Made by a program: the position numbers and the translations under genes. A stretch of DNA of 49,911 nucleotides from sequence record PZ445414.1. One strand, given 5' to 3'. A model generated the notes under the pieces. It saw only the letters and a list, made by a program, of their open reading frames with translations, was not told the origin of the DNA and did not search any database. The stretch comes from a phage. Positions 1 through 47,389 of the stretch are shown here, one piece after another; positions within the stretch are counted from its first letter, which is position 1; each line of letters opens with the position of its first letter.

Positions 1-1572
1 ATGCTGATATGGGAAGATTTAACAGTGGCGCAGAAACGCGCCATTAAAGAAATGAGTGAAATGTCATTTGAGAAGATGATCCGAATCTGGTTCCAGTTAC
101 TCCAGGGTCAAAAATTCCTTGGTAACTGGCATTTCAGCTATTTGTGCCATGAGGTGGAGAAAATCATTTCCGGCGAGTCGCAAAACGTGATCTTTAACAT
201 CACACCAGGCTCTGGTAAGACTGAGGTTTTCTCGATCCATATGTCGCCTTATGCGTCACTGAAAAGCAAGAAAGTGCGAAACCTAAACCTGTCATTCTCT
301 GATGGACTTGTCCAGCAGAACAGCAACCGGATCAAAGAAATTATAGGCTCTCCAGAGTGGCAGGAGTTATGGCCTGGCAAGCTGGCAAAAGCAAGCGCGA
401 AAGATCTGATTGTTCAGGACGGCAACGGCAAGGTTAAATTGCAGGTCAACTCTCGCTCCATCGGCGGACAGGTAACGGGTTTGCGTGGCGGCTATATGGA
501 TGATGGGTTTACCGGAATGTTGGTGCTTGACGATCCAGATAAACCTGACGACATGTTTTCAAAGGTGCGGCGCGAAGCGATTCACAACCGCTTAAAAAAC
601 ACCGTCCGATCTCGTCGAATGAAGGACACAACGCCTATTGTGATGGTTCAGCAGCGGCTACACGTCAACGATTCGACGTGGTTTATGACTAGCGGCGGCA
701 TGGGTGGCATTGAGTTTAAAGTTGTGAGCATTCCGGCACTGGTCACGAAAGAGTATGGCGATTCACTCCCTGATTGGTTAAAACCAGAGTTTGAGCGTGA
801 CGTGCTGAGCAGCGAGCCAGTTTACATTGACGGCGTGGCTCATTACTCATTCTGGCCTGCAAAGGAGAGTGCAAAGGACTTGCTCGCGCTACGCGAAGCG
901 GATCCGTATACTTTTGCGTCTCAGTACCAGCAGCAGCCGATAGCGCTGGGTGGTAACGTATTCAAGGTGGATTGGTTCCAGTTTTACGGCGACGGCGAAA
1001 AATGCACGCTGCCGAAACCGGATCGCTTTGAATATACGTTTATCACTGGCGATACGGCGCAGAAAGCCGGAGAGCTTAACGACTACTCTGTTTTCTGTTA
1101 TTGGGGCATGTTCAAGAATCGCGTTTACTTCATTGACGGCATCCGTGGAAAGTGGGAGGCTCCAGATCTTGAAACCAATTTCAAGGCGTTTGTCAATCAA
1201 TGCTGGAAGCGTAATAAAGAGTGCGGAAGCTTGCGACGGATCCACATAGAGGACAAAGCGAGCGGTACGGGTCTGATTCAGGGGGCGCAAAAGAGCTTGC
1301 CTATTGATATAAATCCCGTTCAGCGTAGTACGGACAAAGTTACCCGCGCAATGGATGCCGCTCCAGTTATGCGAGCCGGACGCGTTGCGCTGCCAGAGAG
1401 TCACCCGATGTTAAACGAGATTCTCGCAGAGGTAGCAGCTTTCACTTTCGACGACTCGCACCCGAACGACGATATCGTAGATAACATCGTTGATGCGGTT
1501 AACGTTGAAATGAACCTGGCAGACGATCCAGTAGCGCGAATGAAAAAGCTTGCTGGGCTACGGAAGAAATAG
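1..1572 (+). CDS. terminase large subunit (start coincides with window edge)
   Basis: 523-aa ORF; P-loop-like NITPGSGKTE near N-terminus, Walker-B-like LVLDDPDKPDD, acidic nuclease-like C-terminal half; directly follows TerS if the window is circularised. Confidence 0.8.
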   Translation: MLIWEDLTVAQKRAIKEMSEMSFEKMIRIWFQLLQGQKFLGNWHFSYLCHEVEKIISGESQNVIFNITPGSGKTEVFSIHMSPYASLKSKKVRNLNLSFSDGLVQQNSNRIKEIIGSPEWQELWPGKLAKASAKDLIVQDGNGKVKLQVNSRSIGGQVTGLRGGYMDDGFTGMLVLDDPDKPDDMFSKVRREAIHNRLKNTVRSRRMKDTTPIVMVQQRLHVNDSTWFMTSGGMGGIEFKVVSIPALVTKEYGDSLPDWLKPEFERDVLSSEPVYIDGVAHYSFWPAKESAKDLLALREADPYTFASQYQQQPIALGGNVFKVDWFQFYGDGEKCTLPKPDRFEYTFITGDTAQKAGELNDYSVFCYWGMFKNRVYFIDGIRGKWEAPDLETNFKAFVNQCWKRNKECGSLRRIHIEDKASGTGLIQGAQKSLPIDINPVQRSTDKVTRAMDAAPVMRAGRVALPESHPMLNEILAEVAAFTFDDSHPNDDIVDNIVDAVNVEMNLADDPVARMKKLAGLRKK

Positions 1573-1587
1573 CACGAATTGCTAAAA
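1568..1587 (+). promoter_or_regulatory. conserved box AATAGCAC-N5-GCTAAAA (copy 1) with TACAAT 5 nt downstream
   Basis: aatagcacgaattgctaaaa; overlaps TerL stop TAG. Confidence 0.5.
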
Positions 1588-1602
1588 GCGTGTACAATGA
1601 AG

Positions 1603-1628
1603 GCTGGACTTTTCCAGCCTTTTTTATT
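1603..1628 (+). terminator. hairpin + T-tract between TerL and portal
   Basis: ggctgga cttt tccagcc tttttt. Confidence 0.5.
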
Positions 1629-1643
1629 ATGGGAGATCAGATA

Positions 1644-2918
1644 ATGACCGAGAAAACAAAACTCGTTAAGGCTGACGGCTACAACGAGATCTTTAAGGGA
1701 GAGCAGCGAGTAGAAACGCCATTTTACATGCAGGGCGGAGTTGCGAAGCAGAGTCTTGCGACATTCTACGAGCGTGACGGGATGGCAAAGCGAATCATCG
1801 ACGTGATCCCGGAGGACATGGTTACGCCAGGCTTTAACGTTGACGGCGTGAAAGACGAGGCAGCATTCCGCTCTTTGTGGGATGAAAAGAAGCTAAACGC
1901 TAAAATCATTGACGCGCTTTGCTGGTCGCGCTTATTTGGCGGCTCCGCTATTGTCGCAGTTATCAACGATGGGCGCATGTTGAAATCTCCAGTTAAAGAG
2001 GGAGCGCCACTTGAAGATATTCGCGTTTATGACCGATTCCAGATCCGAGTTGAGAAGCGAGAAACAAACGCGCGTAGCGTGCGATACGGCGAGCCTGTTT
2101 TGTACACCATCATGCCAGGCGGCGAGATTCCAGAGTATCAGGTGCATTACACGCGAATCTGCATTATTGACGGAGAGCGCTTACCTAACGAGCAGCGCCG
2201 GAAAAATGATGGATGGGGCGCGTCAGTCCTCAACAAAAAGCTGATTGAAGCAATCCACGATTACAACTATTGTGAGGAGTTAGCAACTCAGCTTTTACGA
2301 CGCAAGCAGCAAGCAGTTTGGAAAGCTAAAGGACTCGCGGATTTGTGCGACGATGAAGAAGGCGTGTCGGCGGCGCGGCTGCGATTGGCTCAAGTTGACG
2401 ACGAGGGCGGCGTTGGTCGGGCAATCGGCATTGACGCAACGGACGAGGAATACGAGGTTCTTAACTCTGATATTTCCGGCGTAGACACTTTCCTTGAGAA
2501 GAAAATGGATCGCATCGTTTCGCTTACTGGCATCCATGAAATCATCTTGAAGAACAAAAACACCGGAGGCGTTAGCGCAAGCCAAAACACCGCGCTTGAT
2601 ACATATCACAAGCTAATTGAGCGCAAGCGCAAAGAGGACTACAAGCCGATCCTGGAGTTCCTCTTGCCATTCATGATCGCGGAGCAAGAATGGTCTATTT
2701 CGTTTGATCCGCTTTCGGTTCCAAGTAGCAAAGACCAGGCTGAGATCTTGAATAAAAACATTGAATCGATCAGTAAGGCGATTGAAGGTCAGTTTATGGA
2801 TGTTGAGGAAGGACGCGACACATTGCGCTCTATCGCTCCGTCTCTTAAACTGAAAGACGGCAACAAAATCAAGCTACCGGAGCCGGAGCAGGAGCCGGAG
2901 CCAGGAACGGAGGTTTAA
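1644..2918 (+). CDS. portal protein (putative)
   Basis: ORF immediately after TerL; ATG at 1644 preceded by GGGAGA; ~424 aa; acidic C-terminus; position/size typical of portal. Confidence 0.6.
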   Translation: MTEKTKLVKADGYNEIFKGEQRVETPFYMQGGVAKQSLATFYERDGMAKRIIDVIPEDMVTPGFNVDGVKDEAAFRSLWDEKKLNAKIIDALCWSRLFGGSAIVAVINDGRMLKSPVKEGAPLEDIRVYDRFQIRVEKRETNARSVRYGEPVLYTIMPGGEIPEYQVHYTRICIIDGERLPNEQRRKNDGWGASVLNKKLIEAIHDYNYCEELATQLLRRKQQAVWKAKGLADLCDDEEGVSAARLRLAQVDDEGGVGRAIGIDATDEEYEVLNSDISGVDTFLEKKMDRIVSLTGIHEIILKNKNTGGVSASQNTALDTYHKLIERKRKEDYKPILEFLLPFMIAEQEWSISFDPLSVPSSKDQAEILNKNIESISKAIEGQFMDVEEGRDTLRSIAPSLKLKDGNKIKLPEPEQEPEPGTEV

Positions 2919-2921
2919 TCC

Positions 2922-3671
2922 ATGAAGGTAAAAGGAATCGTTAAACAGTGGCGATTCCCCGAAGCCAGCGAGCGGCAATTAAGCCGCTCCATTAAAGAGG
3001 CTGTAAGGGATCTGGTTGTGTTTATGCGCAGCAAAACAAAGGCGATGAAGTTTGACGCTACAGATCAGGAGATCAGCAGCGCAGAGGACGAGATCAAGGA
3101 GTTCGCAAAAGAGCTTGCGCTCTCCCTGATTGGTCTGCTTCCGGCGCTCGCGTCGGCTGTATACAAGTTCAACTCAAAACAGTGGGTTAATGTTGCGAAG
3201 TCAACCGGAGGGGCTAACAATCCAGTTATCATCCTGCTAATTGCAGTCGGAGCCAATCAGGGCGAGGAATGGTATAAAACTCTATACGGCGAGTGGTACA
3301 ACATGAGTGCAGCCTCGTTTGACAAGCTTTTCACCAACATAATTAACGACTGGTCTACGAACATACGCCAGGCTAATTTCACCGGAAAGAAAGCGGAGCA
3401 GGTGAACGAGATCGCGGAGCGTCGTTTCGCTGTTTACTCCTCATGGGCTGGCAATCGCGCAACGGGAATTATTGGATCGTGGAATAGCCGCCTTATGCGC
3501 CAGAGGTTGCTAGATGCTGGGGTGAATTCTTATTACTGGCATGGCGTCATGGATGAAAGGGAGAGATTGAAACACGTACTGCTAGAGGGTAAACTGATCT
3601 CACTTAATGAGATACACATCTTTCCAGGAGAGGAGTATGGTTGCAGATGTTGGGCGATTCCAAAATGGTAG
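2922..3671 (+). CDS. head morphogenesis / minor head protein (putative)
   Basis: 249-aa ORF with SD (GGAGG) directly after portal; gene order. Confidence 0.4.
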   Translation: MKVKGIVKQWRFPEASERQLSRSIKEAVRDLVVFMRSKTKAMKFDATDQEISSAEDEIKEFAKELALSLIGLLPALASAVYKFNSKQWVNVAKSTGGANNPVIILLIAVGANQGEEWYKTLYGEWYNMSAASFDKLFTNIINDWSTNIRQANFTGKKAEQVNEIAERRFAVYSSWAGNRATGIIGSWNSRLMRQRLLDAGVNSYYWHGVMDERERLKHVLLEGKLISLNEIHIFPGEEYGCRCWAIPKW

Positions 3672-6058: not shown

Positions 6059-6077
6059 CATAAAAACCTATTGCACG

Positions 6078-6096
6078 TTTAACAAAAAGTGCTATC
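6078..6096 (-). promoter_or_regulatory. conserved box, inverted orientation, in leader of major capsid gene
   Basis: fwd tttaacaaaaagtgctat = reverse complement of ATAGCACTTTTTGTTAAA. Confidence 0.45.
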
Positions 6097-6140
6097 ATTG
6101 AGGCTGTTAATTGCTAACAGCCTTTAAAGGAGAAAGAAAC

Positions 6141-15908: not shown

Positions 15909-15918
15909 GCAACCTCAA

Positions 15919-15938
15919 AACAGCACAAATTGTTAAAA
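15919..15938 (+). promoter_or_regulatory. box variant (AACAGCAC-N5-GTTAAAA) in leader of J gene
   Basis: aacagcacaaattgttaaaa downstream of TGCTATAAT. Confidence 0.4.
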
Positions 15939-15953
15939 CTGGAGGCCAAAATT

Positions 15954-24027: not shown

Positions 24028-24032
24028 AAGAA

Positions 24033-24058
24033 AAGCCCCCAATTGGGGGCTTTTTTAT
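24033..24058. terminator. bidirectional terminator between ssb (+) and tail fibre (-)
   Basis: aaaag ccccc aatt ggggg cttttttatt. Confidence 0.8.
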
Positions 24059-26058
24059 TACTTGTTTTTCAGCATTACGATGTCAGCCTTTAACGCTTCA
24101 ATCTCTGCTTTCTGCGCATCAATTAGATCGCGCATTTCCTTGAATGCCTCAACATACAGCGCGGATAATGCGTTGTAGTCGAGCGTTAGCGGGTTTTCCA
24201 CCTTGTCACAATTCTTTGTAAGCACATTGTGATCTTTTCCCTCTGTGACGCTAACAGCCTCCGGTAGCACCTTCTGCACGTCCTGCGCGATCACGCCAGC
24301 ATTTCGAACGGTATTCTGAATCGTGGTGTGCATGGAGTATGTAACGCCGCGCAGGGAGCAAATCTTATCAAGCGCACCAGTTACGGGCTTGATCCAGAAT
24401 TTCGCTCGCTCGTCTGACGTTGCAGTGAATTTCACCGCCTTACATTCACCCGTTGCGCCGTAAATGCTGAGTGCTTGGCCACCCGCGCCAGTGCTAGCAT
24501 TATCAGATCGCAATTGCAACACTTGCGTATCGTTTGAGTAAATCACGGCACGGTTTCTGCCAGATCTGTTTTGCAGCCATACGTGAGTATTGTCACTTCC
24601 ATCACCTCCGCGAACGTATGCGCTAGAGCCGTCAACAAACAAATTGCCTTGGCAGTTTGTGTCACCTCCGTTAAGTCGAATGCGATCTGAGATCTGAATG
24701 CCTTTTTTGTGTACATAACTCCAAAGGCCAATGCTATCATCATTGTTAGATGGATTCCCCACCCATCCTGTGTTCTTGTTCAGATCGTTGAACATGATGT
24801 AATGCGAGTTTCCAGCAGTTCTAGGCCTGACAACAAACGAATCAGCATCCCATGACGTGTACAGCTTCGTCCTAAGGTTGATATCAGAGGTTTCAATGGT
24901 GAGGCGCCCACCATTAAACAGATATCCGCCAGCAATGTTTGCGCTCATATATCCAGCAGTAAACCTTAGGTTCCCGCCTCCGTTCGCATCTCTGTTCATT
25001 CCGTCGCAGTAAATTCGCGCGTCGTAGTCATACTTTCCGCTGTAGTGAAGATCAATGTAGGCCGTTGAGTTTTTTGTTCGGTAGCCTAACTCAAGCTGAT
25101 TAGCCTCCACCCCCATTGACGCAACAAGGTTAGGTACGCTGAAATCACCAGTAGGAGACAATGACGCGAACTGCGGAGAGTTTTGGTTGCTCCTGTTAAT
25201 GATTGAAATGTTCTGGTTGCGATCCGCCCTAAACTCTGCCTGTGACAATATTGTGCTTCCGCTCATTAGCTGAGCAGCGAATGCGGCGCTGGGGTTGTCA
25301 TTGTTTGCGTTTGAAGGAGTTCTGATCAGATATCCGTTAGCTGTGATCGCATTACCAAACTCAACCGTGCTACTCTTACCCAACCCCAAATTTTCTCTTG
25401 ATGTTGGCTTGTCAGCAACATCACTCAAGTTATTAGCTTTCTTCAACTGGTTATCAGGGTTTGCAGTTTGTGCGCGGTCTGCTTCCGATTTTGCGCGATC
25501 CGCTTGCTGCGTTGCCGTTGTAGCTGATGCCGCCGCAGCGCTCTTTGACGCGTTTGCGCTTGATGCGGCTGTCTGAGCCTCGTTCTTTGCTGTATTTGCC
25601 GCGCTTGCACTGCTTGCTGCGTTTGTTTCGCTTGATTTTGCAGACTTTGCGCTTGCGTCAGCAGCGGCGGCGTTTGCTTCCGTGTTTCGCTCAAGTTGCT
25701 CCAGCTTTTGCCAATCAAAGCTTTTCAGGAAGTCAACAAACTCCTGATACATTGTTTCCTGACCCTGGTAATAACGCAGAGTTTCGGCAACATCTTGCGC
25801 CAGGCCGTCAACCGTCAGAGAGTCATGAAGCAGGATCACATAGTCTCCGCGAGGCACTACCGCGCCGCCAGTAGACGTGGCACGCAGTGAGGTATCATTC
25901 ACGATCTCGCTAATGGTTGCGTATGCAACCGGATTGGATGCAAACACGATTGTTGCACCTGGACGAATCAGCGTTAATGCTGTTTTCCACTTTGTTCCGT
26001 AACCAGTGATATAGCCGTTAGCGTCCATTGACGCTTGACCAGTGCGATAAATAGCCAT
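24058..26058 (-). CDS. side tail fibre protein with C-terminal intramolecular-chaperone-like domain
   Basis: 666 aa from ATG 26058 (SD GGAGA); Ala/Ser-rich low-complexity region; C-terminal TSDERAKFWIKPV...LDYNALSALYVEAFKE resembles S74 autoproteolytic chaperone domain. Confidence 0.65.
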   Translation of the reverse strand: MAIYRTGQASMDANGYITGYGTKWKTALTLIRPGATIVFASNPVAYATISEIVNDTSLRATSTGGAVVPRGDYVILLHDSLTVDGLAQDVAETLRYYQGQETMYQEFVDFLKSFDWQKLEQLERNTEANAAAADASAKSAKSSETNAASSASAANTAKNEAQTAASSANASKSAAAASATTATQQADRAKSEADRAQTANPDNQLKKANNLSDVADKPTSRENLGLGKSSTVEFGNAITANGYLIRTPSNANNDNPSAAFAAQLMSGSTILSQAEFRADRNQNISIINRSNQNSPQFASLSPTGDFSVPNLVASMGVEANQLELGYRTKNSTAYIDLHYSGKYDYDARIYCDGMNRDANGGGNLRFTAGYMSANIAGGYLFNGGRLTIETSDINLRTKLYTSWDADSFVVRPRTAGNSHYIMFNDLNKNTGWVGNPSNNDDSIGLWSYVHKKGIQISDRIRLNGGDTNCQGNLFVDGSSAYVRGGDGSDNTHVWLQNRSGRNRAVIYSNDTQVLQLRSDNASTGAGGQALSIYGATGECKAVKFTATSDERAKFWIKPVTGALDKICSLRGVTYSMHTTIQNTVRNAGVIAQDVQKVLPEAVSVTEGKDHNVLTKNCDKVENPLTLDYNALSALYVEAFKEMRDLIDAQKAEIEALKADIVMLKNK

Positions 26059-26073
26059 ATGTAAAATCTCCCA

Positions 26074-26092
26074 AATAGCACGTTTTGTTAAT
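26074..26092 (+). promoter_or_regulatory. conserved box in leader of (minus-strand) tail fibre gene, inverted relative to gene
   Basis: aatagcacgttttgttaa between TGCTATAAT (minus) and tail-fibre SD. Confidence 0.45.
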
Positions 26093-26102
26093 GACAAGTC
26101 GG

Positions 26103-26111
26103 ATTATAGCA
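26103..26111 (-). promoter_or_regulatory. extended -10 element TGCTATAAT (minus) upstream of tail fibre gene
   Basis: fwd attatagca; follows primase terminator. Confidence 0.45.
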
Positions 26112-26124
26112 TTGCGCAAGGCAT

Positions 26125-26147
26125 AAAAAAACCCCGCCGAAGCGGGG
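26125..26147 (-). terminator. intrinsic terminator after primase gene (minus)
   Basis: fwd aaaaaaa ccccgc cgaa gcgggg. Confidence 0.7.
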
Positions 26148-26162
26148 CAAGAAAGCAATGGT

Positions 26163-27618: not shown

Positions 27619-27629
27619 ATTAAACCTCC

Positions 27630-27649
27630 GATAGCACTTTTTGCTAAAA
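27630..27649 (+). promoter_or_regulatory. conserved box upstream of helicase gene
   Basis: gatagcactttttgctaaaa; TATTAT at 27669-27674. Confidence 0.5.
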
Positions 27650-27706
27650 ACACTCAAAACGTAGGAGCTATTATACATTCAATCGGTTAACGAATAAAGG
27701 TTAAAA

Positions 27707-29709: not shown

Positions 29710-30126
29710 ATGGTTACTGACAAAGGCGATTATCTGGAATATTACGAGAGGGATCCGAGCGATACGCGCAAGGAAGATTCTCACCAGGTTGATTGTGTGG
29801 CGTGGTTGCGCCACCACTACCCACACTTGCTCTTTTGGCACACTGTAAACGAGGGGAGCAAGACAATCACCGCCGCGCTGCGTGACGAACAGGCCGGATT
29901 GCTAAAGGGCGTATCAGACTTTGTTATCCTGATTGGTTCTGGTAAATACCCGTTTGCAGCCATAGAGCTAAAGCAAGCCAACAAATCAGGCAAGCGCAAG
30001 GCTTCACCAGTCAGCGACAACCAGAAAGCTTTCTTGAGCAGGGTTAGACACTTGGGAGGTTTCGCAGCCGTTTGCTATGGCGTGAAGCAATTCAAGCTTG
30101 CAATTGCAGATCTCTTGCAGGAATAG
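29710..30126 (+). CDS. VRR-NUC domain nuclease
   Basis: 138 aa; motif DFVILIGSGKYPFAAIELKQ (D..E.K) typical of VRR-NUC; start ATG right after helicase stop. Confidence 0.6.
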   Translation: MVTDKGDYLEYYERDPSDTRKEDSHQVDCVAWLRHHYPHLLFWHTVNEGSKTITAALRDEQAGLLKGVSDFVILIGSGKYPFAAIELKQANKSGKRKASPVSDNQKAFLSRVRHLGGFAAVCYGVKQFKLAIADLLQE

Positions 30127-30141
30127 CACTTTTTGCTAAAA
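30122..30141 (+). promoter_or_regulatory. conserved box + hairpin + CATAAT upstream of lipoprotein gene
   Basis: aatagcactttttgctaaaa; inverted repeat ggcgca/tgcgcc; overlaps VRR-NUC stop TAG. Confidence 0.55.
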
Positions 30142-30198
30142 CAGGCGCAAAGGAATGCGCCATAATGCACCCAACGAAACAAACACGGAGAATTAACC

Positions 30199-31335: not shown

Positions 31336-31583
31336 TGGGCGAGAGAAATGTAACACTAAACGAGACTGGTTTATTTCTGCTGTATCGCGCTATGGTGTGC
31401 CAGGCTATTGACCTAAATCCACACATTAAGGATGTAATAGAGGTTGACCCGTGGGAGTATTCCAGCGCTCTTGACATGAGCTTTGAGGAAACCGCAAAAC
31501 TACCTCTTGAGAAGTGGCATATCAAGATTGCTGATGATCTGGATGAAATGTGGCAAGACCTTAAAAAGCGAGTTGCTCACTAA
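31335..31583 (+). CDS. hypothetical protein
   Basis: 82 aa from ATG 31335 (TAATG coupling); ends at box. Confidence 0.4.
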   Translation: MGERNVTLNETGLFLLYRAMVCQAIDLNPHIKDVIEVDPWEYSSALDMSFEETAKLPLEKWHIKIADDLDEMWQDLKKRVAH

Positions 31584-31602
31584 ATAGCACTTTTTGTTAA
31601 AA
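31583..31602 (+). promoter_or_regulatory. conserved box + hairpin + CATAAT
   Basis: aatagcactttttgttaaaa; hairpin gcccg...cgggc. Confidence 0.55.
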
Positions 31603-31659
31603 ATGCCCGGCGAAAGTCGGGCATAATTATTTCCAACGAAAACCACTGAGGAAAACGAA

Positions 31660-31851: not shown

Positions 31852-32099
31852 TGAAGGTTGAGCAAGGCCGCGAGGCCGTTTGGAATCACGCCAAAGAAAC
31901 CGGAATGGCAGACGATATAGCACGAATTGCTAAAATATTTGATCTGGCTGATGTTAGTATTATCAGCAACGGGAAAATGACTTACTTGCACGAGAGGCCG
32001 CGCAAAATGCACCGCGTGCCAGCAAACCCGACAAAAATTGACTTCAAAGAAGCAATGGCAAAAATCAGAGAGCCGAAAAAGTATTACAAAGGAGAATAG
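31851..32099 (+). CDS. hypothetical protein
   Basis: 82 aa; TAATG coupling to upstream ORF. Confidence 0.45.
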   Translation: MKVEQGREAVWNHAKETGMADDIARIAKIFDLADVSIISNGKMTYLHERPRKMHRVPANPTKIDFKEAMAKIREPKKYYKGE

Positions 32100-32104
32100 T
32101 TATC

Positions 32105-32179
32105 ATGTGGCGCTTGCTTGTTCTTCCAATGCCCGTTATCATTGCCGCCGTTGTTATGTACGCACTTGTTATGTGATTT
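32105..32179 (+). CDS. tiny hydrophobic peptide (24 aa)
   Basis: ATG after AAAGGAG; single hydrophobic stretch; very short. Confidence 0.2.
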
Positions 32180-32193
32180 AAGAGGAAAAATTA

Positions 32194-33312
32194 ATGATTC
32201 AGAAAATGACAGATCAGCAGTTTAAAGACGCACGAGCGGAGGGTAAAACCTACAAGCAGATCGCGGAGGAGTTCGGCTTGAATGTTCGCACCGTTGAGCG
32301 CCGCGCCGCTCGCCTGGCTCGCGCAGGTGAAACCGAAATCAAAGGAGCACCAGGTTTTGCGGTTGTTCGTGAGTCAGTCCTTACCCGCGCAAACGGCGAA
32401 GAAGTGATGCGCTGGACTATCACCAACAAAGATAAAGAGCAGTTGGAAGCACTCATGCAAGCCGCGATGGATGCATTTGCTGAGGAAGTTCCGCGCCTTG
32501 AGCCTCAGCCGGAAAGCCGAAAGGACTACAGCGAAAGCCTGGCGCTATACCCTATCTTTGACATGCACATTGGCGCAATGGCTCACAAGCATGAATGTGG
32601 TGAGAATTGGGACACGGCAACAGCCGAGAAGGTCATGAATGACTTCTTTGATTATGCGGTTGAGTGTGCGCCAAATAGCGAGAAAGCCGTGCTCCTGATT
32701 GGTGGAGACATGCTTCACAGTGACGGCCTGGAGGCTGTAACACCTGCCAGCGGTCACGTTCTGGATCAGGATAGCCGCTACGCCAAACTTGTTTATGTCG
32801 CAATCCGAGCAACTCGCCGCGCTATCTCATTGATGTTGACCAAGCACAAAGAAGTTGAAATTCAGGTAATCGAGGGCAATCATGACCAATCAGGCATGAT
32901 CTGGCTACGCGCAGCAATGGCTGCGGCATACGAGGACGAGCCGCGCGTGATGGTTGATGTTTCACCTCGCGTAGTGCATCACACGCAGTACGGAAAAACA
33001 TTCCTCGCGTATCATCACGGTCACACCGTGCGCAAGCCGGAAACGTTATTGATGATGTGTGCGGCAGATTGGCGAGAGGATTTTGGCAAATCAAAATCAA
33101 TGTATGCTCATGTAGGCCATTGGCATCACCAGACCGTAACAGAAACCAGCCTGGGTATTGTTGAAGTTCACAGCACTATGGCGGCTAAAGATGCGTATGC
33201 GGCACGTGGCGGCTGGCGCTCTCGTCGTCGCGCTGCGGTTATAATCTACGACAAAGAGCACGGCGAGATCGGTCGATTCATGTTCTACCCTGAAATGATG
33301 GAGTCAAAATAA
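32194..33312 (+). CDS. metallophosphoesterase (calcineurin-like) with N-terminal HTH
   Basis: motifs DMH, GDMLHSD, GNHDQ, YHHGH, HVGHWHH; N-terminal YKQIAEEFGLNVRTVERR HTH-like segment. Confidence 0.6.
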   Translation: MIQKMTDQQFKDARAEGKTYKQIAEEFGLNVRTVERRAARLARAGETEIKGAPGFAVVRESVLTRANGEEVMRWTITNKDKEQLEALMQAAMDAFAEEVPRLEPQPESRKDYSESLALYPIFDMHIGAMAHKHECGENWDTATAEKVMNDFFDYAVECAPNSEKAVLLIGGDMLHSDGLEAVTPASGHVLDQDSRYAKLVYVAIRATRRAISLMLTKHKEVEIQVIEGNHDQSGMIWLRAAMAAAYEDEPRVMVDVSPRVVHHTQYGKTFLAYHHGHTVRKPETLLMMCAADWREDFGKSKSMYAHVGHWHHQTVTETSLGIVEVHSTMAAKDAYAARGGWRSRRRAAVIIYDKEHGEIGRFMFYPEMMESK

Positions 33313-33482
33313 TGAAGGTTAAATGCGTTGAGAATTCATCTAAAACACTGCCTTACTACGAGGGCTTTGTGTACGAGGCCGATCCATTACCTGGCGGGAT
33401 GTACAAGATTAAAGATGAATCAGGGCAGCATATTATTGCGCCGCTAAAAGGGCATTATCTGGAGTTTTTACAGATTGATTAA
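33312..33482 (+). CDS. hypothetical protein (56 aa)
   Basis: ATG overlaps upstream stop (TAATG); followed by intrinsic terminator. Confidence 0.35.
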   Translation: MKVKCVENSSKTLPYYEGFVYEADPLPGGMYKIKDESGQHIIAPLKGHYLEFLQID

Positions 33483-33506
33483 CATTTAATTTCATGAGCT
33501 TACAAA

Positions 33507-33534
33507 GGGCTGGCGTTTGCTAGCCCTTTTTTTA
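33507..33534 (+). terminator. intrinsic terminator before lysis cassette
   Basis: gggctgg cgtttg ctagccc ttttttt. Confidence 0.65.
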
Positions 33535-33609
33535 TTGTTTCGCTTTTGCTCATTGCTGGTTAACATACACTCACTTAATTATTGACATTTTGCACGAGGA
33601 GGTTAGATC

Positions 33610-33825
33610 ATGAGAGAATTTTTAAACGCAGCAACCACCAGCACCGGAGGCGCATCACTGACGGGCGCGGCGACGGGGCAAATTACCATTGCGGTTGCTG
33701 GTCTTATCCTAATGGCGGCTTTCGGCTTTTGGGGCGCGTATCTGCGCTGGAAGGATAGCAAGGCGCTGCGAGAGGCTTTGGATCGTGAAGATATCAAAGA
33801 GGCAATTCGAATCAGGGGGAAATAA
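33610..33825 (+). CDS. holin (pinholin-like)
   Basis: 71 aa; Gly/Ala/Ser/Thr-rich weakly hydrophobic TMD1 then hydrophobic TMD2, charged C-terminus; directly upstream of SAR-type endolysin; SD GAGGAGG. Confidence 0.65.
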
Positions 33826-33827
33826 TC

Positions 33828-34322
33828 ATGAGTTTACAGAGAAGCGCGGCATACGCTTTATTTGGCGCTGCGCTCTCGTTAACTTCTCCGCTCCTGGAGG
33901 AGATCGAGGGCATCCGGTACAAGCCTTATAAAGATATTGCCGGAATCTGGACAGTCTGCGCGGGTATTACCGGATCTGACGTTGTGCTTGGTAAGACGTA
34001 CACGCAGAGAGAATGTGACGCACTTCTTGCCAAGCATATCGGGATTGCAAAGGCAGAAGTCGATAAGCGCGTAAATGTTGAGATACCGGACACTATGCGT
34101 GCGGCAATGTACTCCTTTACGTACAACGCTGGTACTGGAGCGTTTCGCAAGTCAACCATGCTCAAGAAGATCAACAATGGCGATCTTTATGGGGCGTGCG
34201 ACGAGCTTTGGAAATGGACGTATTACTACAATCCAAAAACGGGAAAGCGCGAGAAGTCCAAAGGTTTAAAAAACCGTCGCGCGGTTGAGTATAAATATTG
34301 CACTAAGGATCTGAAAAAATGA
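33828..34322 (+). CDS. endolysin, lysozyme (GH24-like) with N-terminal SAR-like segment
   Basis: [26 protein letters not shown] and [13 protein letters not shown] closely parallel phage 21-type SAR lysozymes as recalled; N-terminal [18 protein letters not shown] weakly hydrophobic. Confidence 0.75.
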
Positions 34323-34714
34323 AACGATTAGCTTTGGCGGTACTGGTTGCCGCCTCTCTTTCTGGTTGTTCAGCGTCAAGCGCTCTGAGCGGTTTAATCG
34401 GCAGCAAGCCGGAAATCACAGCACAGGCCGGAGCCGAAAACGTAAAGCAAACAGTAGGCGTGACGGCAAAGAATGACGAGAGCAGCAAGCAGGAAAACAC
34501 GATCAAGGATTCGCAGGTTGGCAAGGTTGACTCCTCCAACAAAAAGAAGGTGAGCACTTCAAGCATCCAGGCTGAGACAATCACAGCCGACAAGATCGAG
34601 ATCAGAAACAGCGAGAGCGATTTGTATGTGATGTTCTTTGCGCTTGCTTGCTTATTTGTTGCTGGCTTTGCCGCTGGCGTTTTTTGGAAGGGCAGAAAAA
34701 ATAAAGGGGCATAA
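34319..34714 (+). CDS. unimolecular spanin (lipoprotein with C-terminal TMD)
   Basis: N-terminal lipobox LSGC, C-terminal TM helix [22 protein letters not shown]; position after endolysin, as for T1 gp11-type u-spanins. Confidence 0.7.
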
Positions 34715-34727
34715 TGCCCCTTTTTTC
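34706..34727. terminator. bidirectional terminator after spanin gene
   Basis: aaaggggc ataat gcccc tttttt. Confidence 0.7.
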
Positions 34728-34917
34728 ATTCCAGTAGTCTGACGTTGACTAATACAACTCCGTCCTCGTCGTGCAGGTTGTGCTCCTTTGCCGGATTAGC
34801 TCGCATATCGCTGTACAGGATCAGGAGCAGCGCCGCAATCATTTCGTCATGCGATACCGAATTTTTTGCGCAGTGCATCATAATCGCATCTATTAGATTT
34901 TGTGTTGAATAATTCAT
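34726..34917 (-). CDS. hypothetical protein (uncertain start)
   Basis: 63-aa ORF overlapping end of 34847..35239; real start may be internal. Confidence 0.25.
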   Translation of the reverse strand: MNYSTQNLIDAIMMHCAKNSVSHDEMIAALLLILYSDMRANPAKEHNLHDEDGVVLVNVRLLE

Positions 34918-36820: not shown

Positions 36821-36876
36821 CTTAAAGTCTCCTTGTTGGTTGACCTGTATTATAGGTCAACCATCTTACAGCCTTT

Positions 36877-36896
36877 TGGCAATTCGTGCTATTTTA
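36877..36896 (-). promoter_or_regulatory. conserved box upstream of P-loop ATPase gene
   Basis: minus AAAATAGCACGAATTGCCAA; TATAAT inside hairpin GGTTGACC/GGTCAACC. Confidence 0.5.
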
Positions 36897-37705: not shown

Positions 37706-37763
37706 TTGTTTTATCCTCAATTCGTTTCGTTGAGAAGATAATAGCGGATCTTATCGACCCGCT

Positions 37764-37784
37764 TTTAACAAAAAGTGCTATTTT
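37764..37784 (-). promoter_or_regulatory. conserved box (minus)
   Basis: minus AAAATAGCACTTTTTGTTAAAA; overlaps MTase stop TAG; TATTAT and leader CTCAACGAAACGAATTGAGGA follow. Confidence 0.55.
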
Positions 37785-38491
37785 GAGTTTGCAAGCCATA
37801 CAGCAATAGCCAGGCCGCGAGGAGTGAGCGAGCGAATCAGTTTTGTTCGCGCTGATTTACCGCCTAATTTCTTCCAGCCTGGATTATCATTCCCAACCGG
37901 ATCCACTGGCAAAGCCTCAGGCATCACAAAGCCGTTACCAGTCCAAAGGCAAGTTTGCTTATTGTAAGCGTCACTCGATGGGATGATATCAGGAAAAGCA
38001 GGGTGAGCTTCATCCTTGATATGGATATAGCCGCCATAGTCGCACGGATGAAATTTGTGATCCGGCTTGCGCCATAGCGTTGACAGCTTGCCTACAGGGT
38101 TTTCGATCATGTACGGAGCACCGAAGTGATCAGCAATCTCCGCCGCAATCTTGCAGGTAGTCGCCGCCTTGACCTGGAAATCTGGATCAATCTCAGCTTT
38201 GCGCTTCCAGTGGCGAGAGCCGGAGTTTGCCAGGTCAGTACATGGAGGAAACGCCATAACGAAATCAGGTTTACCCCAAAGCAGGTTGCACGCGCTCGCC
38301 TTGAAATCCTCGTCAATCCAGGCGTTAACGTAGCTGATATTGGGATGCATTACGCGCACTGACTGGTACGAACCGTGATCGCCTTCATCGGCATTGAAGC
38401 AGACGACTTTATAACCAGCTTTCGCCCACGGCAGCGCCGCATAGCCGGAGCCGTCGAACATTGAGAAAACCAGGCCTTTACGTTCAAACAT
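37778..38491 (-). CDS. DNA (cytosine-5)-methyltransferase-like protein (compact)
   Basis: 237 aa from ATG 38491 (SD AGGTG); motif I-like FSMFDGSGYA, PC motif AFPPCTDLANSG, ENV motif MIENPVGKL. Confidence 0.5.
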   Translation of the reverse strand: MFERKGLVFSMFDGSGYAALPWAKAGYKVVCFNADEGDHGSYQSVRVMHPNISYVNAWIDEDFKASACNLLWGKPDFVMAFPPCTDLANSGSRHWKRKAEIDPDFQVKAATTCKIAAEIADHFGAPYMIENPVGKLSTLWRKPDHKFHPCDYGGYIHIKDEAHPAFPDIIPSSDAYNKQTCLWTGNGFVMPEALPVDPVGNDNPGWKKLGGKSARTKLIRSLTPRGLAIAVWLANSK

Positions 38492-39746: not shown

Positions 39747-39803
39747 TTTTTGATTCCTCAGTTGTTTTGTTGAGGCAATGATAGCGCATCGCCTCTGATT
39801 GGT

Positions 39804-39823
39804 TTTAACAAAAAGTGCTATTC
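39804..39823 (-). promoter_or_regulatory. conserved box (minus)
   Basis: minus AATAGCACTTTTTGTTAAAA. Confidence 0.5.
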
Positions 39824-39927
39824 CATTTCAGGAATCTAATCCTGCCTGGTGCGCATGGCCTCGCACGCCCATAGTAGCCATTACACACAGTCACCATAAA
39901 AGTTGAACGTTTCACTCCAACACCTCC

Positions 39928-40191: not shown

Positions 40192-40247
40192 TTCGTTTTC
40201 CTCATTTCGTTTCGATGAATGCATTATGCCAAATCCAGATCACGTAG

Positions 40248-40267
40248 TTTTAGCAAAAAGTGCTATT
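40248..40267 (-). promoter_or_regulatory. conserved box (minus)
   Basis: minus AATAGCACTTTTTGCTAAAA; CATAAT and leader CATCGAAACGAAATGAGGA follow. Confidence 0.55.
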
Positions 40268-40280
40268 CAATCGGTAGTTA

Positions 40281-41602: not shown

Positions 41603-41608
41603 TTGGTA

Positions 41609-41628
41609 AATAGCACTTTTTGTTAAAA
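41609..41628 (+). promoter_or_regulatory. conserved box + hairpin + ATAATA
   Basis: aatagcactttttgttaaaa; hairpin gcccc...ggggc. Confidence 0.55.
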
Positions 41629-41686
41629 CTGCCCCGCGCGAGTGGGGCATAATAGCCTCAACGAAACGAATTGAGGAGATTGCAAA

Positions 41687-42751: not shown

Positions 42752-42810
42752 GTAGTTGGCACAATGAGCACGTCATGCAATTCTACCGCCAACGGATAAA
42801 GAAAATCCTC

Positions 42811-42830
42811 AATAGCACGAATTGCTAAAA
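42811..42830 (+). promoter_or_regulatory. conserved box + hairpin containing TATAGT
   Basis: aatagcacgaattgctaaaa. Confidence 0.55.
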
Positions 42831-42891
42831 CACCAGATCGGGGTTGCGCTATAGTAACCCCATCGAAACGAAACACACTGAGGAGCACAAA

Positions 42892-44265: not shown

Positions 44266-44475
44266 GTGATTCTTACAGTAGCTTTTGCCAATCCGCGAGC
44301 GTGCAACATCTTTGGATTCAGGGAGAGGATGCGCATTGAGGCCGAGCGCAACGATAAAGGCATCCTTTACGTCAAATCGCCAAAAACTGGCGTTGCAATG
44401 ATGGTCAAGGAGAATGGAGGCCGGATGTTCATTCGCTCAATGTCAGGCCAGGATCTGGTGACTTTCACAAAATAG
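44266..44475 (+). CDS. hypothetical protein
   Basis: 69 aa; GTG start after GAGG; stop TAG embedded in next box. Confidence 0.35.
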   Translation: MILTVAFANPRACNIFGFRERMRIEAERNDKGILYVKSPKTGVAMMVKENGGRMFIRSMSGQDLVTFTK

Positions 44476-44490
44476 CACGAATTGCTAAAA
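44471..44490 (+). promoter_or_regulatory. conserved box; TATAAT at 44510-44515
   Basis: aatagcacgaattgctaaaa; overlaps upstream stop TAG. Confidence 0.55.
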
Positions 44491-44547
44491 CGCGCTCCGA
44501 TAGGGGCGCTATAATGCACCCATACCAAGCAACGAGAGGAAAACAAA

Positions 44548-44970: not shown

Positions 44971-45201
44971 ATGATTGAGATCAAATTCGATGGCAACTCT
45001 AAGCGATTCAACGGCGTACAGATCCACAAAGATGCAACACACGCGGTAGCTGGTCGCAATTTCGGCACTTATTTTAAGCTAAATGGCGAATGGTATTTCA
45101 CAGTTTTCTCTGGCTACGCGCTGAAAGCAACGGTTGCGTCTCATGACTTTGATATCCGCGATCACATCAGAGACGACGCAAAAATCACAGAGTTTAAATA
45201 G
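44971..45201 (+). CDS. hypothetical protein
   Basis: 76 aa from ATG 44971 after AAAGGAG. Confidence 0.4.
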   Translation: MIEIKFDGNSKRFNGVQIHKDATHAVAGRNFGTYFKLNGEWYFTVFSGYALKATVASHDFDIRDHIRDDAKITEFK

Positions 45202-45216
45202 CACTTTTTGCTAAAG
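45197..45216 (+). promoter_or_regulatory. conserved box; TGgTATAGT in hairpin loop
   Basis: aatagcactttttgctaaag. Confidence 0.55.
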
Positions 45217-45280
45217 ACTTTCCGCGAGGCCATTGGTATAGTGGCCTCATTGAAAGCAATCACGCAAACAGGAGATAAAA

Positions 45281-46105: not shown

Positions 46106-46303
46106 ATGGCTGTTAACACACTAAAACGAATTGGCGTTATCATGCTAATTATCGGAGGGTCATTGCTAACAGAGCCAGGTTTTGCAAACACGGCTGGAAG
46201 TATGGCGCTGTTAATCGGCGGTCTTATTGGCGGCTACATGGACGGCGTAAAGGCTGGGCGGCGTGAGGCGTTCGGCGGTGAAGATAAAAATCCGATTAAA
46301 TAG
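46106..46303 (+). CDS. small membrane protein
   Basis: 65 aa; two hydrophobic Gly-rich segments; SD GAGG. Confidence 0.4.
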   Translation: MAVNTLKRIGVIMLIIGGSLLTEPGFANTAGSMALLIGGLIGGYMDGVKAGRREAFGGEDKNPIK

Positions 46304-46318
46304 CACGAATCGCTAAAA
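46299..46318 (+). promoter_or_regulatory. conserved box variant (TCGCTA)
   Basis: aatagcacgaatcgctaaaa; TGgTAAAGT downstream. Confidence 0.5.
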
Positions 46319-46384
46319 CTTCCGCGAGGGCATTTGGTAAAGTGTCCTCATTGAAGCAAAGCAACCAATCAAGGAGATAACGAA

Positions 46385-46848: not shown

Positions 46849-47318
46849 AATATTATGTGCGTCCTACTGTAGATGGTGAAAACTTTACTGCTGGCAAACT
46901 CTACGAGATCCAGCATTGCTTTGGAACTGGTCGCGTTATCGTGCTCAACGATGCAAAAGAGGAAACCATTGTGCGTTGCGATGGAATTGTGTCGGCTCGC
47001 CTGGACTGGCGCGGAAAGTTTGATCGCGTGAACATTCCAGGCGCTCAAGAAGCTATGGAGTCGGCGCAATCCGCTGCGGAGTATATGCTGAAAGTTGGGA
47101 TTGGTCGCCATGGCGGCTGGCAGCACAGCAAGATCGGGCAGGTGACTATCAGCGACGGGCAAATCTACGCAAGTGCATCGCCTCGCAACGAGTACGTCGA
47201 AGTGCTGGAACAGTTACGCGAAATTCTGCGCGTGCCGGAGGGTGAGAATATCCTGACTCATGCGAAAGTTGTGCGCGTGCTGGCTGATGGGTTAATCAAC
47301 CTCCAGAAAACGAAATAG
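46845..47318 (+). CDS. hypothetical protein
   Basis: 157 aa from ATG 46845. Confidence 0.45.
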   Translation: MKYYVRPTVDGENFTAGKLYEIQHCFGTGRVIVLNDAKEETIVRCDGIVSARLDWRGKFDRVNIPGAQEAMESAQSAAEYMLKVGIGRHGGWQHSKIGQVTISDGQIYASASPRNEYVEVLEQLREILRVPEGENILTHAKVVRVLADGLINLQKTK

Positions 47319-47333
47319 CACTTTTTGCTAAAA
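47314..47333 (+). promoter_or_regulatory. conserved box; TGgTATAGT in hairpin loop
   Basis: aatagcactttttgctaaaa. Confidence 0.55.
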
Positions 47334-47389
47334 CTCAGATGGGGTAGGCTGGTATAGTTACCCCATCGAAACGAAACGGAGACACCAAA

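What the first reader, a model, noticed from the sequence alone, without database searches (positions are those of the whole stretch)
24058..26058. Tail fibre with C-terminal intramolecular-chaperone-like domain and Ala/Ser-rich low-complexity stalk, transcribed opposite to the tail operon
Seen in sequence: C-terminal segment ...ATSDERAKFWIKPVTGALDKICSLRGVTYSM...LDYNALSALYVEAFKEMRDLIDAQKAEIEALK resembles the autoproteolytic chaperone (peptidase S74-type, S-D-x-R-x-K region) found at the end of phage fibres/spikes; residues ~140-230 are an Ala/Ser/Asn/Thr-rich low-complexity tract. The gene sits in the minus-strand block with primase, not in the tail operon, and carries a box copy in its leader.
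Basis: partly seen in the sequence, partly recalled or inferred. Interest (0 to 1): 0.4.

Follow-up and report, generated by a model that had tools for sequence, protein, structure and literature searches.

The report
Ordinary T1-family lateral tail fibre gene
This is the lateral tail fibre gene of the published coliphage IsaakIselin, a typical T1-family fibre that folds with a self-cleaving C-terminal chaperone domain; its odd position beside the DNA primase gene is normal for this phage family.

Summary
The window is the complete genome of Escherichia phage IsaakIselin (Bas10, MZ501077.1, Drexlerviridae). The finding matches CDS bas10_0031, "lateral tail fiber protein" (window 24058-26058, minus strand, 666 aa).

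All four observations hold:
- **C-terminal domain.** It is a Peptidase_S74 / intramolecular-chaperone domain (Pfam 51.2 bits, cut-off 22). The Ser548-Lys553 dyad lies in SDERAK. The model matches the solved MyRF ICA domain (TM 0.66).
- **Ala/Ser tract.** It is real but lies at residues 123-200, not 140-230. It is a heptad-periodic helix, so a coiled-coil stalk rather than disorder.
- **Gene position.** The gene sits between ssb and primase, opposite to the tail operon. T1 and TLS have the same arrangement.
- **Box.** The leader carries the published 21-nt T1-family repeat of unknown function.

The architecture is an N-terminal virion anchor, coiled coil, beta-rich tip and S74 domain. It recurs in over 1000 homologues and is already described for other Drexlerviridae. 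Verdict: interpretation supported, already known, low interest.

One small loose end remains. The repeat copy here is one of only two that are inverted relative to their gene. The other precedes the major capsid gene. This copy lies downstream of the -10 element.

The parts
26131..26148 (-). Intrinsic terminator after the primase gene (GCCCCGC-TTCG-GCGGGGT followed by TTTTTTT). It isolates the fibre gene from upstream transcription.
   Evidence: Terminator scan. RNA fold -15.1 kcal/mol, z = -2.8. Conserved in relatives.
26103..26111 (-). Predicted extended -10 promoter element TGcTATAAT with no recognisable -35. The predicted transcription start is about 26095-26096.
   Evidence: Read from the sequence. 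TGCTATTAT or TGATAAAAT lies at the equivalent place in Warwickvirus, Webervirus and T1 leaders. Function is inferred, and the start site is not mapped.
26073..26093 (-). Copy of the 21-nt T1-family intergenic repeat. The published consensus is aaATAGCACnnnTTGnTAAAA. Here it reads as the reverse complement, CATTAACAAAACGTGCTATTT, in the sense of the gene. It lies between the -10 element and the Shine-Dalgarno sequence.
   Evidence: Matrix score 28 bits. Repeat described in PMC11447400. Same position and orientation in T1 and three Warwickvirus phages, absent in TLS and Sushi.
26068..26072 (-). Shine-Dalgarno sequence GGGAG, 9 nt before ATG 26058.
   Evidence: Sequence.
24058..26058 (-). Lateral tail fibre gene bas10_0031, 666 aa, 71.7 kDa precursor, stop codon TAA at 24058-24060.
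25693..26058 (-). N-terminal domain, residues 1-122. This is the module conserved across Drexlerviridae fibres and spikes, and the presumed virion attachment domain.
   Evidence: 88-96% identity to many homologues whose remainder differs. E about 1e-47 to the N-termini of solved phage depolymerases 7VYV, 7VZ3 and 7LZJ. The BASEL paper states that only the far N-terminus is conserved.
25459..25692 (-). Ala/Ser-rich heptad-repeat stalk, residues 123-200. It is a predicted continuous alpha-helix over 116-196, inferred to form a trimeric coiled coil about 12 nm long.
   Evidence: Composition and heptad register. AlphaFold2 secondary structure. The stalk is longer in most relatives.
24418..25458 (-). 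Junction motif (NNLSDVADKPTSRENLGLG, about residues 209-227) and beta-rich distal domain, residues 201-547. This is the presumed receptor-binding part, with recombination breakpoints near residues 212-216 and 404-407.
24061..24417 (-). Peptidase_S74 / intramolecular chaperone auto-processing domain, residues 548-666. Ser548 is the predicted nucleophile and new N-terminus after cleavage, Lys553 is the predicted base, and a terminal helix spans 628-665. The predicted released fragment is 13.2 kDa.
24029..24056 (.). Bidirectional intrinsic terminator shared by the fibre gene (-) and the convergent ssb gene (+).
   Evidence: + strand. (- strand RNA: -17.5 kcal/mol hairpin followed by UUUUCUUUU).

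Best explanation
Window 24058-26058(-) encodes the lateral (side) tail fibre of the T1-like siphovirus IsaakIselin.

Transcription (inferred): the gene is its own small unit, made of terminator, extended -10 promoter, leader, gene and bidirectional terminator. It is embedded in the replication/recombination region.

Assembly (inferred by homology): the 71.7-kDa precursor trimerises from its C-terminal Peptidase_S74 / intramolecular-chaperone domain. That domain templates folding of the beta-rich distal domain. It then removes itself by Ser548-Lys553 autoproteolysis between Thr547 and Ser548. This leaves a 58.4-kDa mature chain and releases a 13.2-kDa fragment, so no separate fibre-assembly gene is needed.

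Architecture: the conserved N-terminal domain (1-122) docks the trimer on the tail. An Ala-core coiled coil of about 80 residues forms the stalk.

Function (inferred): the variable distal domain (about 216-547) binds a host surface glycan, probably an O-antigen type. Binding would be reversible and would speed adsorption on smooth hosts. Irreversible binding uses YncD through a separate receptor-binding locus next to gpJ.

Shown here: identity, domain content, catalytic residues, fold, synteny and modular mosaicism. Inferred: cleavage, trimer state, ligand, promoter use and timing.
For: - Identity: 100% match to MZ501077.1 CDS 'lateral tail fiber protein'. Tail-fibre PHROGs at E=1e-112.
- S74 domain: Pfam 51.2 bits against a cut-off of 22. 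SDxRxK aligns with the S16 gp37 and MyRF ICA sequences. Asp549 and Lys553 are invariant and Ser548 is 57/60 in homologues.
- Stalk: Ala at one heptad position in 10/10 heptads. A single helix is predicted over 116-196.
- N-terminal module: shared at 88-96% identity with fibres that differ downstream, and with solved depolymerase N-termini.
- Family: 1075 homologues at E<=1e-5. Of the 120 listed, most are on contigs of about 50 kb and nearly all carry PF13884.
- Synteny: ssb -> <- fibre <- primase <- regulator | helicase -> is the same in T1 and TLS.
- Literature: the BASEL paper describes this locus as the Drexlerviridae lateral tail fibre locus and gives YncD as the terminal receptor of IsaakIselin. 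Cronobacter Drexlerviridae gp28 is described with the same coiled-coil, gp37-trimerisation and ICA architecture. The TLS paper suggests that a 78-kDa virion protein is its gp55, which it relates to the T5 L-shaped tail fibre by HHpred.
- Flanking signals: terminators on both sides.
Against: - No experimental data for this protein were found. Cleavage, trimerisation and virion incorporation are inferred from homology.
- The ligand is unknown. The BASEL paper itself says the O-antigen role of Drexlerviridae lateral fibres 'has never been directly demonstrated'. IsaakIselin was isolated on K-12, which lacks O-antigen.
- The structure models are monomers of what should be an intertwined trimer. 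Whole-chain fold matches are therefore weak (TM about 0.1-0.3).
- The promoter has no -35 element and was not picked up by the consensus scan.
Confidence: 0.9

Rival explanations
1. The protein is an enzymatic tailspike (capsule or O-antigen depolymerase) rather than a binding fibre.
Confidence: 0.04
2. The S74-like domain is a retained trimerisation and folding module that is not cleaved off, so the mature fibre is the full-length chain.
For: Cleavage was not tested. The TLS paper suggests its 78-kDa virion band is gp55, which it relates to the T5 fibre. The TLS fibre gene at this locus (stf) encodes 674 aa and carries S74. That size is closer to an uncleaved than to a cleaved chain.
Against: The catalytic Ser and Lys and the flanking Thr-Ser-Asp are almost invariant across 60 homologues. 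That conservation is expected only if catalysis is under selection. From established knowledge, every S74 domain studied so far with this dyad self-cleaves: K1F endosialidase, T5 pb1, S16 gp37 and MyRF. The TLS band assignment is tentative.
Confidence: 0.06
3. This fibre, not the locus next to gpJ, is the essential primary receptor-binding protein of the phage.
For: It is the most variable host-recognition gene of the family, and single residue changes in the homologous Cronobacter phage fibre alter host range.
Against: IsaakIselin depends on YncD. BASEL links terminal-receptor specificity in the family to alleles of the locus downstream of gpJ, not to the lateral fibre. By analogy, T5-type lateral fibres are dispensable on rough strains.
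Confidence: 0.05

Closest known systems
Lateral tail fibres of other Drexlerviridae (Cronobacter phages CRES7/CRES9 gp28, PMC12090712; TLS Stf; Henu7, Warwickvirus and Webervirus fibres)
   Same: Same N-terminal anchor (up to 96% identity), coiled-coil stalk, gp37-type trimerisation region and C-terminal ICA/S74 domain. Same locus next to ssb and primase in T1, TLS and Warwickvirus.
   Different: The distal domain 216-545 is at most 79% identical to any homologue, and that one is a metagenomic sequence. Among deposited phages only the last ~370 nt match another record, at 81%. The stalk is among the shortest, 666 aa against 750-1100 aa for most relatives. T1 itself ends in PF25670 rather than S74. 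In Webervirus Sushi the gene is co-directional with ssb.
Phage T5 L-shaped tail fibre pb1, C-terminal region with intramolecular chaperone (PDB 4UW7/4UW8)
   Different: pb1 is about twice as long and has an unrelated N-terminus and shaft (length from memory). No sequence match was detected outside the S74 domain.
Endosialidase C-terminal intramolecular chaperone domain (phage K1F endoNF, PDB 3GW6), founder of Peptidase_S74
   Same: Pfam family, Ser-Lys dyad in the S-D-x-R-x-K context, and position at the extreme C-terminus of a trimeric phage adhesin.
MyRF ICA domain (PDB 7DC3) and Salmonella phage S16 gp37 (PDB 6F45)
   Same: These are the closest solved relatives of the C-terminal domain by sequence (E 6e-4 and 2e-3). 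7DC3 is also the closest by fold (TM 0.66, 29% identity).
   Different: MyRF is a eukaryotic transcription factor. S16 gp37 is a myovirus long tail fibre that additionally needs the gp38 adhesin (from memory).
Phage depolymerases PDB 7LZJ, 7VYV and 7VZ3 (from memory, capsule depolymerases of Klebsiella siphophages)
   Same: Homologous N-terminal domain and start of the coiled coil (residues 1-183, E about 1e-47).
   Different: Their C-terminal parts are enzymatic beta-helices with no counterpart here.

Membership tests
[quoted passage not shown] | Match to the family profile above the curated threshold | tested here: met
   PF13884 at 51.2 bits against a cut-off of 22, E=1.5e-13, profile positions 1-57 of 58, residues 548-602.
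[quoted passage not shown] | Catalytic Ser-Lys dyad with Lys five residues after Ser (S-D-x-R-x-K) | tested here: met
   Ser548-Asp-Glu-Arg-Ala-Lys553. Across 60 homologues Ser is 57/60 (Cys in 3), Asp 60/60 and Lys 60/60. It aligns with SSDRRIK of S16 gp37.
[quoted passage not shown] | Fold of a solved ICA domain, including the terminal long helix | tested here: met
[quoted passage not shown] | Location at the extreme C-terminus of a trimeric fibre or spike | tested here: met
   The domain spans residues 548-666 of 666 and follows the beta-rich distal domain. The trimeric state is not testable with a monomer model.
[quoted passage not shown] | Autoproteolytic release after folding | not testable with these tools
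   Needs mass spectrometry or SDS-PAGE of virions or recombinant protein. The prediction is 58.4 kDa plus 13.2 kDa.
Drexlerviridae lateral tail fibre | Conserved far-N-terminal attachment module | tested here: met
   Residues 1-122 are 88-96% identical to many homologues and 38% identical to T1 ST26 over 1-228. The criterion is stated in PMC8594841.
Drexlerviridae lateral tail fibre | Syntenic locus between the recombination genes (exoVIII-erf-ssb) and primase/helicase | tested here: met
   for the window, for T1, for TLS, and for Warwickvirus.
Drexlerviridae lateral tail fibre | Presence in the virion as side fibres | not testable with these tools
   There is only indirect support: a 78-kDa virion band that the TLS paper suggests is its gp55.
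gp37_trimer (PF20744, T4 gp37 trimerisation region) | Profile match above the curated threshold | tested here: inconclusive
   22.4 bits against a cut-off of 21.7, which is marginal, at residues 408-463. Many close homologues carry a precomputed PF20744 hit.
Tailspike depolymerase | Catalytic beta-helix or other glycanase domain | tested here: not met
   No enzymatic family is found by Pfam. Homology to solved depolymerases stops at residue 183.
21-nt intergenic repeat of T1-like phages (aaATAGCACnnnTTGnTAAAA, PMC11447400) | Sequence match to the repeat consensus | tested here: met
   26073-26093(-) scores 28 bits, with the core GTGCTATT exact. This copy contributed to the scoring matrix.
21-nt intergenic repeat of T1-like phages (aaATAGCACnnnTTGnTAAAA, PMC11447400) | Oriented in the direction of transcription, about 76 nt upstream of the start codon | tested here: not met
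   The copy is inverted relative to the fibre gene, and the 25-mer scored ends 12 nt before the ATG. In 14 of the 20 intergenic copies the repeat is co-directional with the next gene and ends 51-64 nt before its ATG.

The most novel reading that the evidence does not exclude
The inverted 21-nt T1-family repeat may be a position-dependent control site. It sits between the extended -10 element and the ribosome-binding site of the fibre gene, and a second inverted copy precedes the major capsid gene. The same unknown factor would then act at two kinds of site. One kind lies about 40 bp upstream of the -10 at the many early-gene promoters. The other is an operator-like or promoter-proximal site at virion genes, which would time expression of structural genes scattered outside the tail operon.
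Probability: 0.15. Interest if true: 0.45.

Novelty: already known. Interest (0 to 1): 0.1.

Why it matters
The finding matters little beyond correct annotation. The gene, its product name, its locus and its domain plan are already in the GenBank record and in published work on Drexlerviridae.

It has practical value for host-range engineering. The module boundaries lie near residues 122-127, 212-216 and 404-407, and the predicted cleavage site is Thr547|Ser548. These mark where distal domains can be swapped while keeping the virion anchor and the chaperone.

The only open question it touches is the function of the 21-nt repeat of T1-like phages, which the TLS authors explicitly list as unsolved. 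The two inverted copies before virion genes give a concrete contrast to test.

Tried and rejected
- **RNA element in the leader.** Rejected. The leaders of IsaakIselin, T1 and swan01 fold no better than shuffles (z +0.45, +0.11, -0.86). Rfam finds nothing in the window.
- **The 21-mer around the -10 element as the repeated 'box'.** Rejected. It is unique in the window. The repeat is the element downstream of it.
- **The leader box as a standard upstream element for a plus-strand promoter reading into primase.** Rejected. There is no -10-like hexamer at the canonical 17-nt distance (sequence).
- **Whole-chain Foldseek search.** It gave only weak fibre matches (TM 0.09-0.13), because the model is a monomer of an intertwined trimer. 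Modelling the S74 domain separately gave a clear answer.
- **The 679-aa TTG-initiated ORF.** Rejected in favour of ATG 26058. The Shine-Dalgarno sequence, the homologue N-termini and the GenBank annotation all support the shorter ORF.
- **Depolymerase reading.** Rejected.
- **Plus-strand ORFs antisense to the Ala-rich tract** (25295-25576 and 25527-25874). They were regarded as by-products of GCN-rich coding sequence and not pursued.
- **bas10_0033 as a candidate box-binding protein.** It gives only sub-threshold Cro/YdaS helix-turn-helix hits, so no link could be established.

Full report
**Identity of the sequence.** A megablast of the ORF against deposited phage genomes gives a 100% match over its whole length to Escherichia phage IsaakIselin (Bas10, MZ501077.1). 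That genome is 49,911 bp, the same length as the window. It belongs to Drexlerviridae, Tempevirinae, Henuseptimavirus. The window is that genome rotated by 533 nt. The finding's coordinates, 24058-26058 on the minus strand, are exactly CDS bas10_0031, annotated 'lateral tail fiber protein' (QXV80566.1, 666 aa). The mechanical ORF list extends the frame to a TTG at 26097 (679 aa). That codon lies inside the promoter region. The ATG at 26058 has GGGAG 9 nt upstream, and homologues, including solved structures, begin at the equivalent Met.

**Check of the observation.**
- Both quoted peptides are present, at residues 546-576 and 626-657.
- Pfam Peptidase_S74 matches residues 548-602 at E=1.5e-13, 51.2 bits against a gathering score of 22.
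- The compositionally biased tract is real but sits at residues 123-200, not about 140-230. It is 38% Ala, 17% Ser, 10% Thr and 9% Asn. Local entropy falls to 2.2 bits against about 3.6 elsewhere.
- The tract is not featureless. Written in heptads, Ala occupies the same position in 10 of 10 repeats, and small residues flank the register. AlphaFold2 predicts one uninterrupted helix over 116-196. I read it as the small-residue core of a trimeric coiled-coil stalk about 12 nm long. That reading is an inference.
- The strand and neighbourhood claims are correct. The order is exoVIII-hyp-erf-ssb on the plus strand, then fibre, primase and regulator on the minus strand, then helicase on the plus strand. 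The tail operon ending in gpJ lies upstream on the plus strand.

**Anatomy of the protein.** BLASTP of the query against the 119 other listed homologues (1075 reached E<=1e-5) defines five modules.
- An N-terminal domain (1-122/127) is shared at 88-96% identity with proteins that differ completely downstream.
- The stalk is variable in length. Most relatives are 750-1100 aa because their stalk is longer.
- A junction motif, NNLSDVADKPTSRENLGLG (about residues 209-227), follows the stalk. Its core residues N210, L211, S212, D213 and N223 are invariant or nearly so in the alignment.
- A beta-rich distal domain (216-547) has additional exchange points near residues 404-407.
- The S74 domain closes the protein.

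**Is the genomic position unusual?** No. T1, the family prototype, has ssb -> <- tail fibre (ST26) <- primase <- transcriptional regulator | helicase ->. TLS has the same arrangement. Three Warwickvirus phages have primase followed by the fibre. The BASEL paper describes this as the conserved lateral tail fibre locus of all 13 of its Drexlerviridae. It reports syntenic flanks, with homology only at the 5' end of the fibre gene. It proposes O-antigen as the primary receptor while noting this 'has never been directly demonstrated'. IsaakIselin's terminal receptor is YncD. BASEL links terminal-receptor specificity in the family to the locus downstream of gpJ.

The same domain plan (coiled coil, gp37 trimerisation region, ICA domain) has been published for the Drexlerviridae Cronobacter phages CRES7 and CRES9, with host-range-determining residues in the distal part. 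S74 is common but not universal at this locus. TLS and Webervirus Sushi have it, and T1 ends in PF25670 instead. In Sushi the fibre gene is co-directional with ssb.

**Expression signals.** The primase gene is followed by a strong intrinsic terminator (26131-26148, -15.1 kcal/mol). Then comes TGcTATAAT (26103-26111), an extended -10 element without a -35, which the two-hexamer scan therefore does not report. The box follows, then GGGAG and the ATG. The gene ends in a hairpin shared with the convergent ssb gene (24029-24056, -17.5 kcal/mol plus a U-run on the minus-strand RNA). The leader is conserved. 104 phage records match it, 9 over at least 80% of its length at 94% identity or more, and most Warwickvirus-type records at about 84% over the part from terminator to Shine-Dalgarno. 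An extended -10-like element is present at the same place in Warwickvirus, Webervirus and T1. The gene is therefore probably a self-contained transcription unit, which is an inference. Start site and timing are unmapped.

**The 'box'.** The repeat is real and already described. The TLS genome paper reports a 21-nt direct repeat, aaATAGCACnnnTTGnTAAAA, with 18 intergenic copies. They lie in the direction of transcription, about 76 nt upstream of start codons. The repeat also occurs in T1, Rtp and Rogue1, and its function is unknown. The authors list it among the open questions for T1-like phages.

In this window a matrix built from the 14 exact-core copies finds 22 sites of at least 15 bits, 20 of them intergenic. 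In 14 of the 20, the repeat is co-directional with the next gene and ends 51-64 nt before its ATG. A TATAAT-like hexamer follows about 17 nt after the 25-mer scored. In eight of these copies, the TAG inside AATAGCAC is the stop codon of the upstream gene. Four further co-directional copies sit at other distances (39, 21 and 13 nt from the ATG).

Only two intergenic copies are inverted relative to the gene they precede. One lies before the major capsid gene (6075-6099, 41 nt from the ATG). The other lies in the fibre leader (26071-26095, 12 nt from the ATG, downstream of the -10 element). T1 has inverted copies at the equivalent places, before its major head gene, ST40 and the fibre gene. TLS keeps the one before the capsid gene but has none in its fibre leader. 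The three Warwickvirus leaders keep the fibre copy.

The leader RNA is not significantly structured, so a DNA-level role is more likely. What that role is remains open, and I could not connect it to the weakly Cro-like product of bas10_0033.

**Verdict.** The feature is an ordinary, already annotated and published kind of phage lateral tail fibre. Neither its placement nor its chaperone domain is unusual for Drexlerviridae. Interest is low. The only unexplained residue is the orientation and position of the family's enigmatic 21-nt repeat at this gene and at the capsid gene.

Noticed in passing
window, 22 sites, e.g. 1565-1589, 30119-30143, 31580-31604, 36872-36896, 37761-37785, 39801-39825, 40246-40270, 41606-41630, 42808-42832, 44468-44492, 45194-45218, 46296-46320, 47311-47335: The 21-nt T1-family repeat (AATAGCAC-N5-GCTAAAA, half-sites TAGCA/TGCTA) has very regular geometry. 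In 14 of the 20 intergenic copies it is co-directional with the next gene and ends 51-64 nt before its ATG. A TATAAT-like hexamer follows about 17 nt after the 25-mer scored, which puts the quasi-palindrome centre near -41. In eight of these copies, the TAG inside the repeat is the stop codon of the upstream gene. The repeat is published for TLS and T1 (PMC11447400), with function unknown.
   Followed up: partly
window 6075-6099 (+), upstream of the major capsid gene (ATG 6141); T1 L007 15066-15090; TLS L008 15022-15046: A second inverted copy of the repeat precedes the major capsid gene in three genera. In that orientation it reads TGCTATCAT, TGCTATTAT or TGCTATATT, an extended -10-like element. 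It is followed at once by a hairpin plus T-run. This could be an overlapping terminator/promoter arrangement, which is speculative.
   Followed up: partly
window 15916-15940 (repeat on + strand), 13 nt before the gpJ start: A repeat copy (26 bits) lies directly against the Shine-Dalgarno sequence of the J-like tail tip gene. That is too close for the usual repeat to -10 to ATG geometry.
   Followed up: no
window 27627-27651, divergent region between regulator bas10_0033 (-) and helicase (+): One repeat copy serves the helicase promoter in the standard geometry and also overlaps the leader of the divergent putative regulator gene, 8 nt before its ATG. The regulator gives only sub-threshold Cro/YdaS helix-turn-helix hits.
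   Followed up: partly
homologues P0055, P0058, P0063 (alignment A1, column of Ser548): Three fibre homologues have Cys instead of the S74 nucleophile Ser, while Asp549 and Lys553 are kept. This may be a Cys-Lys variant of the autoprotease.
   Followed up: no
L007 (T1) 32695-34881; L006 (Sushi) 505-3003; L008 (TLS) 32060-34084: C-terminal modules at this locus differ between genera. T1 ends in PF25670 (Phage_tail_C_2) with no S74. TLS and Sushi have S74. In Webervirus Sushi the fibre gene is co-directional with, and downstream of, ssb rather than convergent with it.
   Followed up: partly
window 25295-25576 (+) and 25527-25874 (+): Open frames of 93 and 115 aa run antisense to the Ala-rich part of the fibre gene. 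They are most likely by-products of GCN-rich coding sequence.
   Followed up: no
window 24058-26058 compared with deposited phages: Only the deposited IsaakIselin record covers more than a third of the gene at megablast level. The 5' 400-670 nt are shared at 89-95% with Henu7, Enterobacter phages AS5 and N5822, and Klebsiella phage Samwise. The 3' 370 nt are shared at 81% with phage BananaBelafonte. This is a clear mosaic across host genera.
   Followed up: partly
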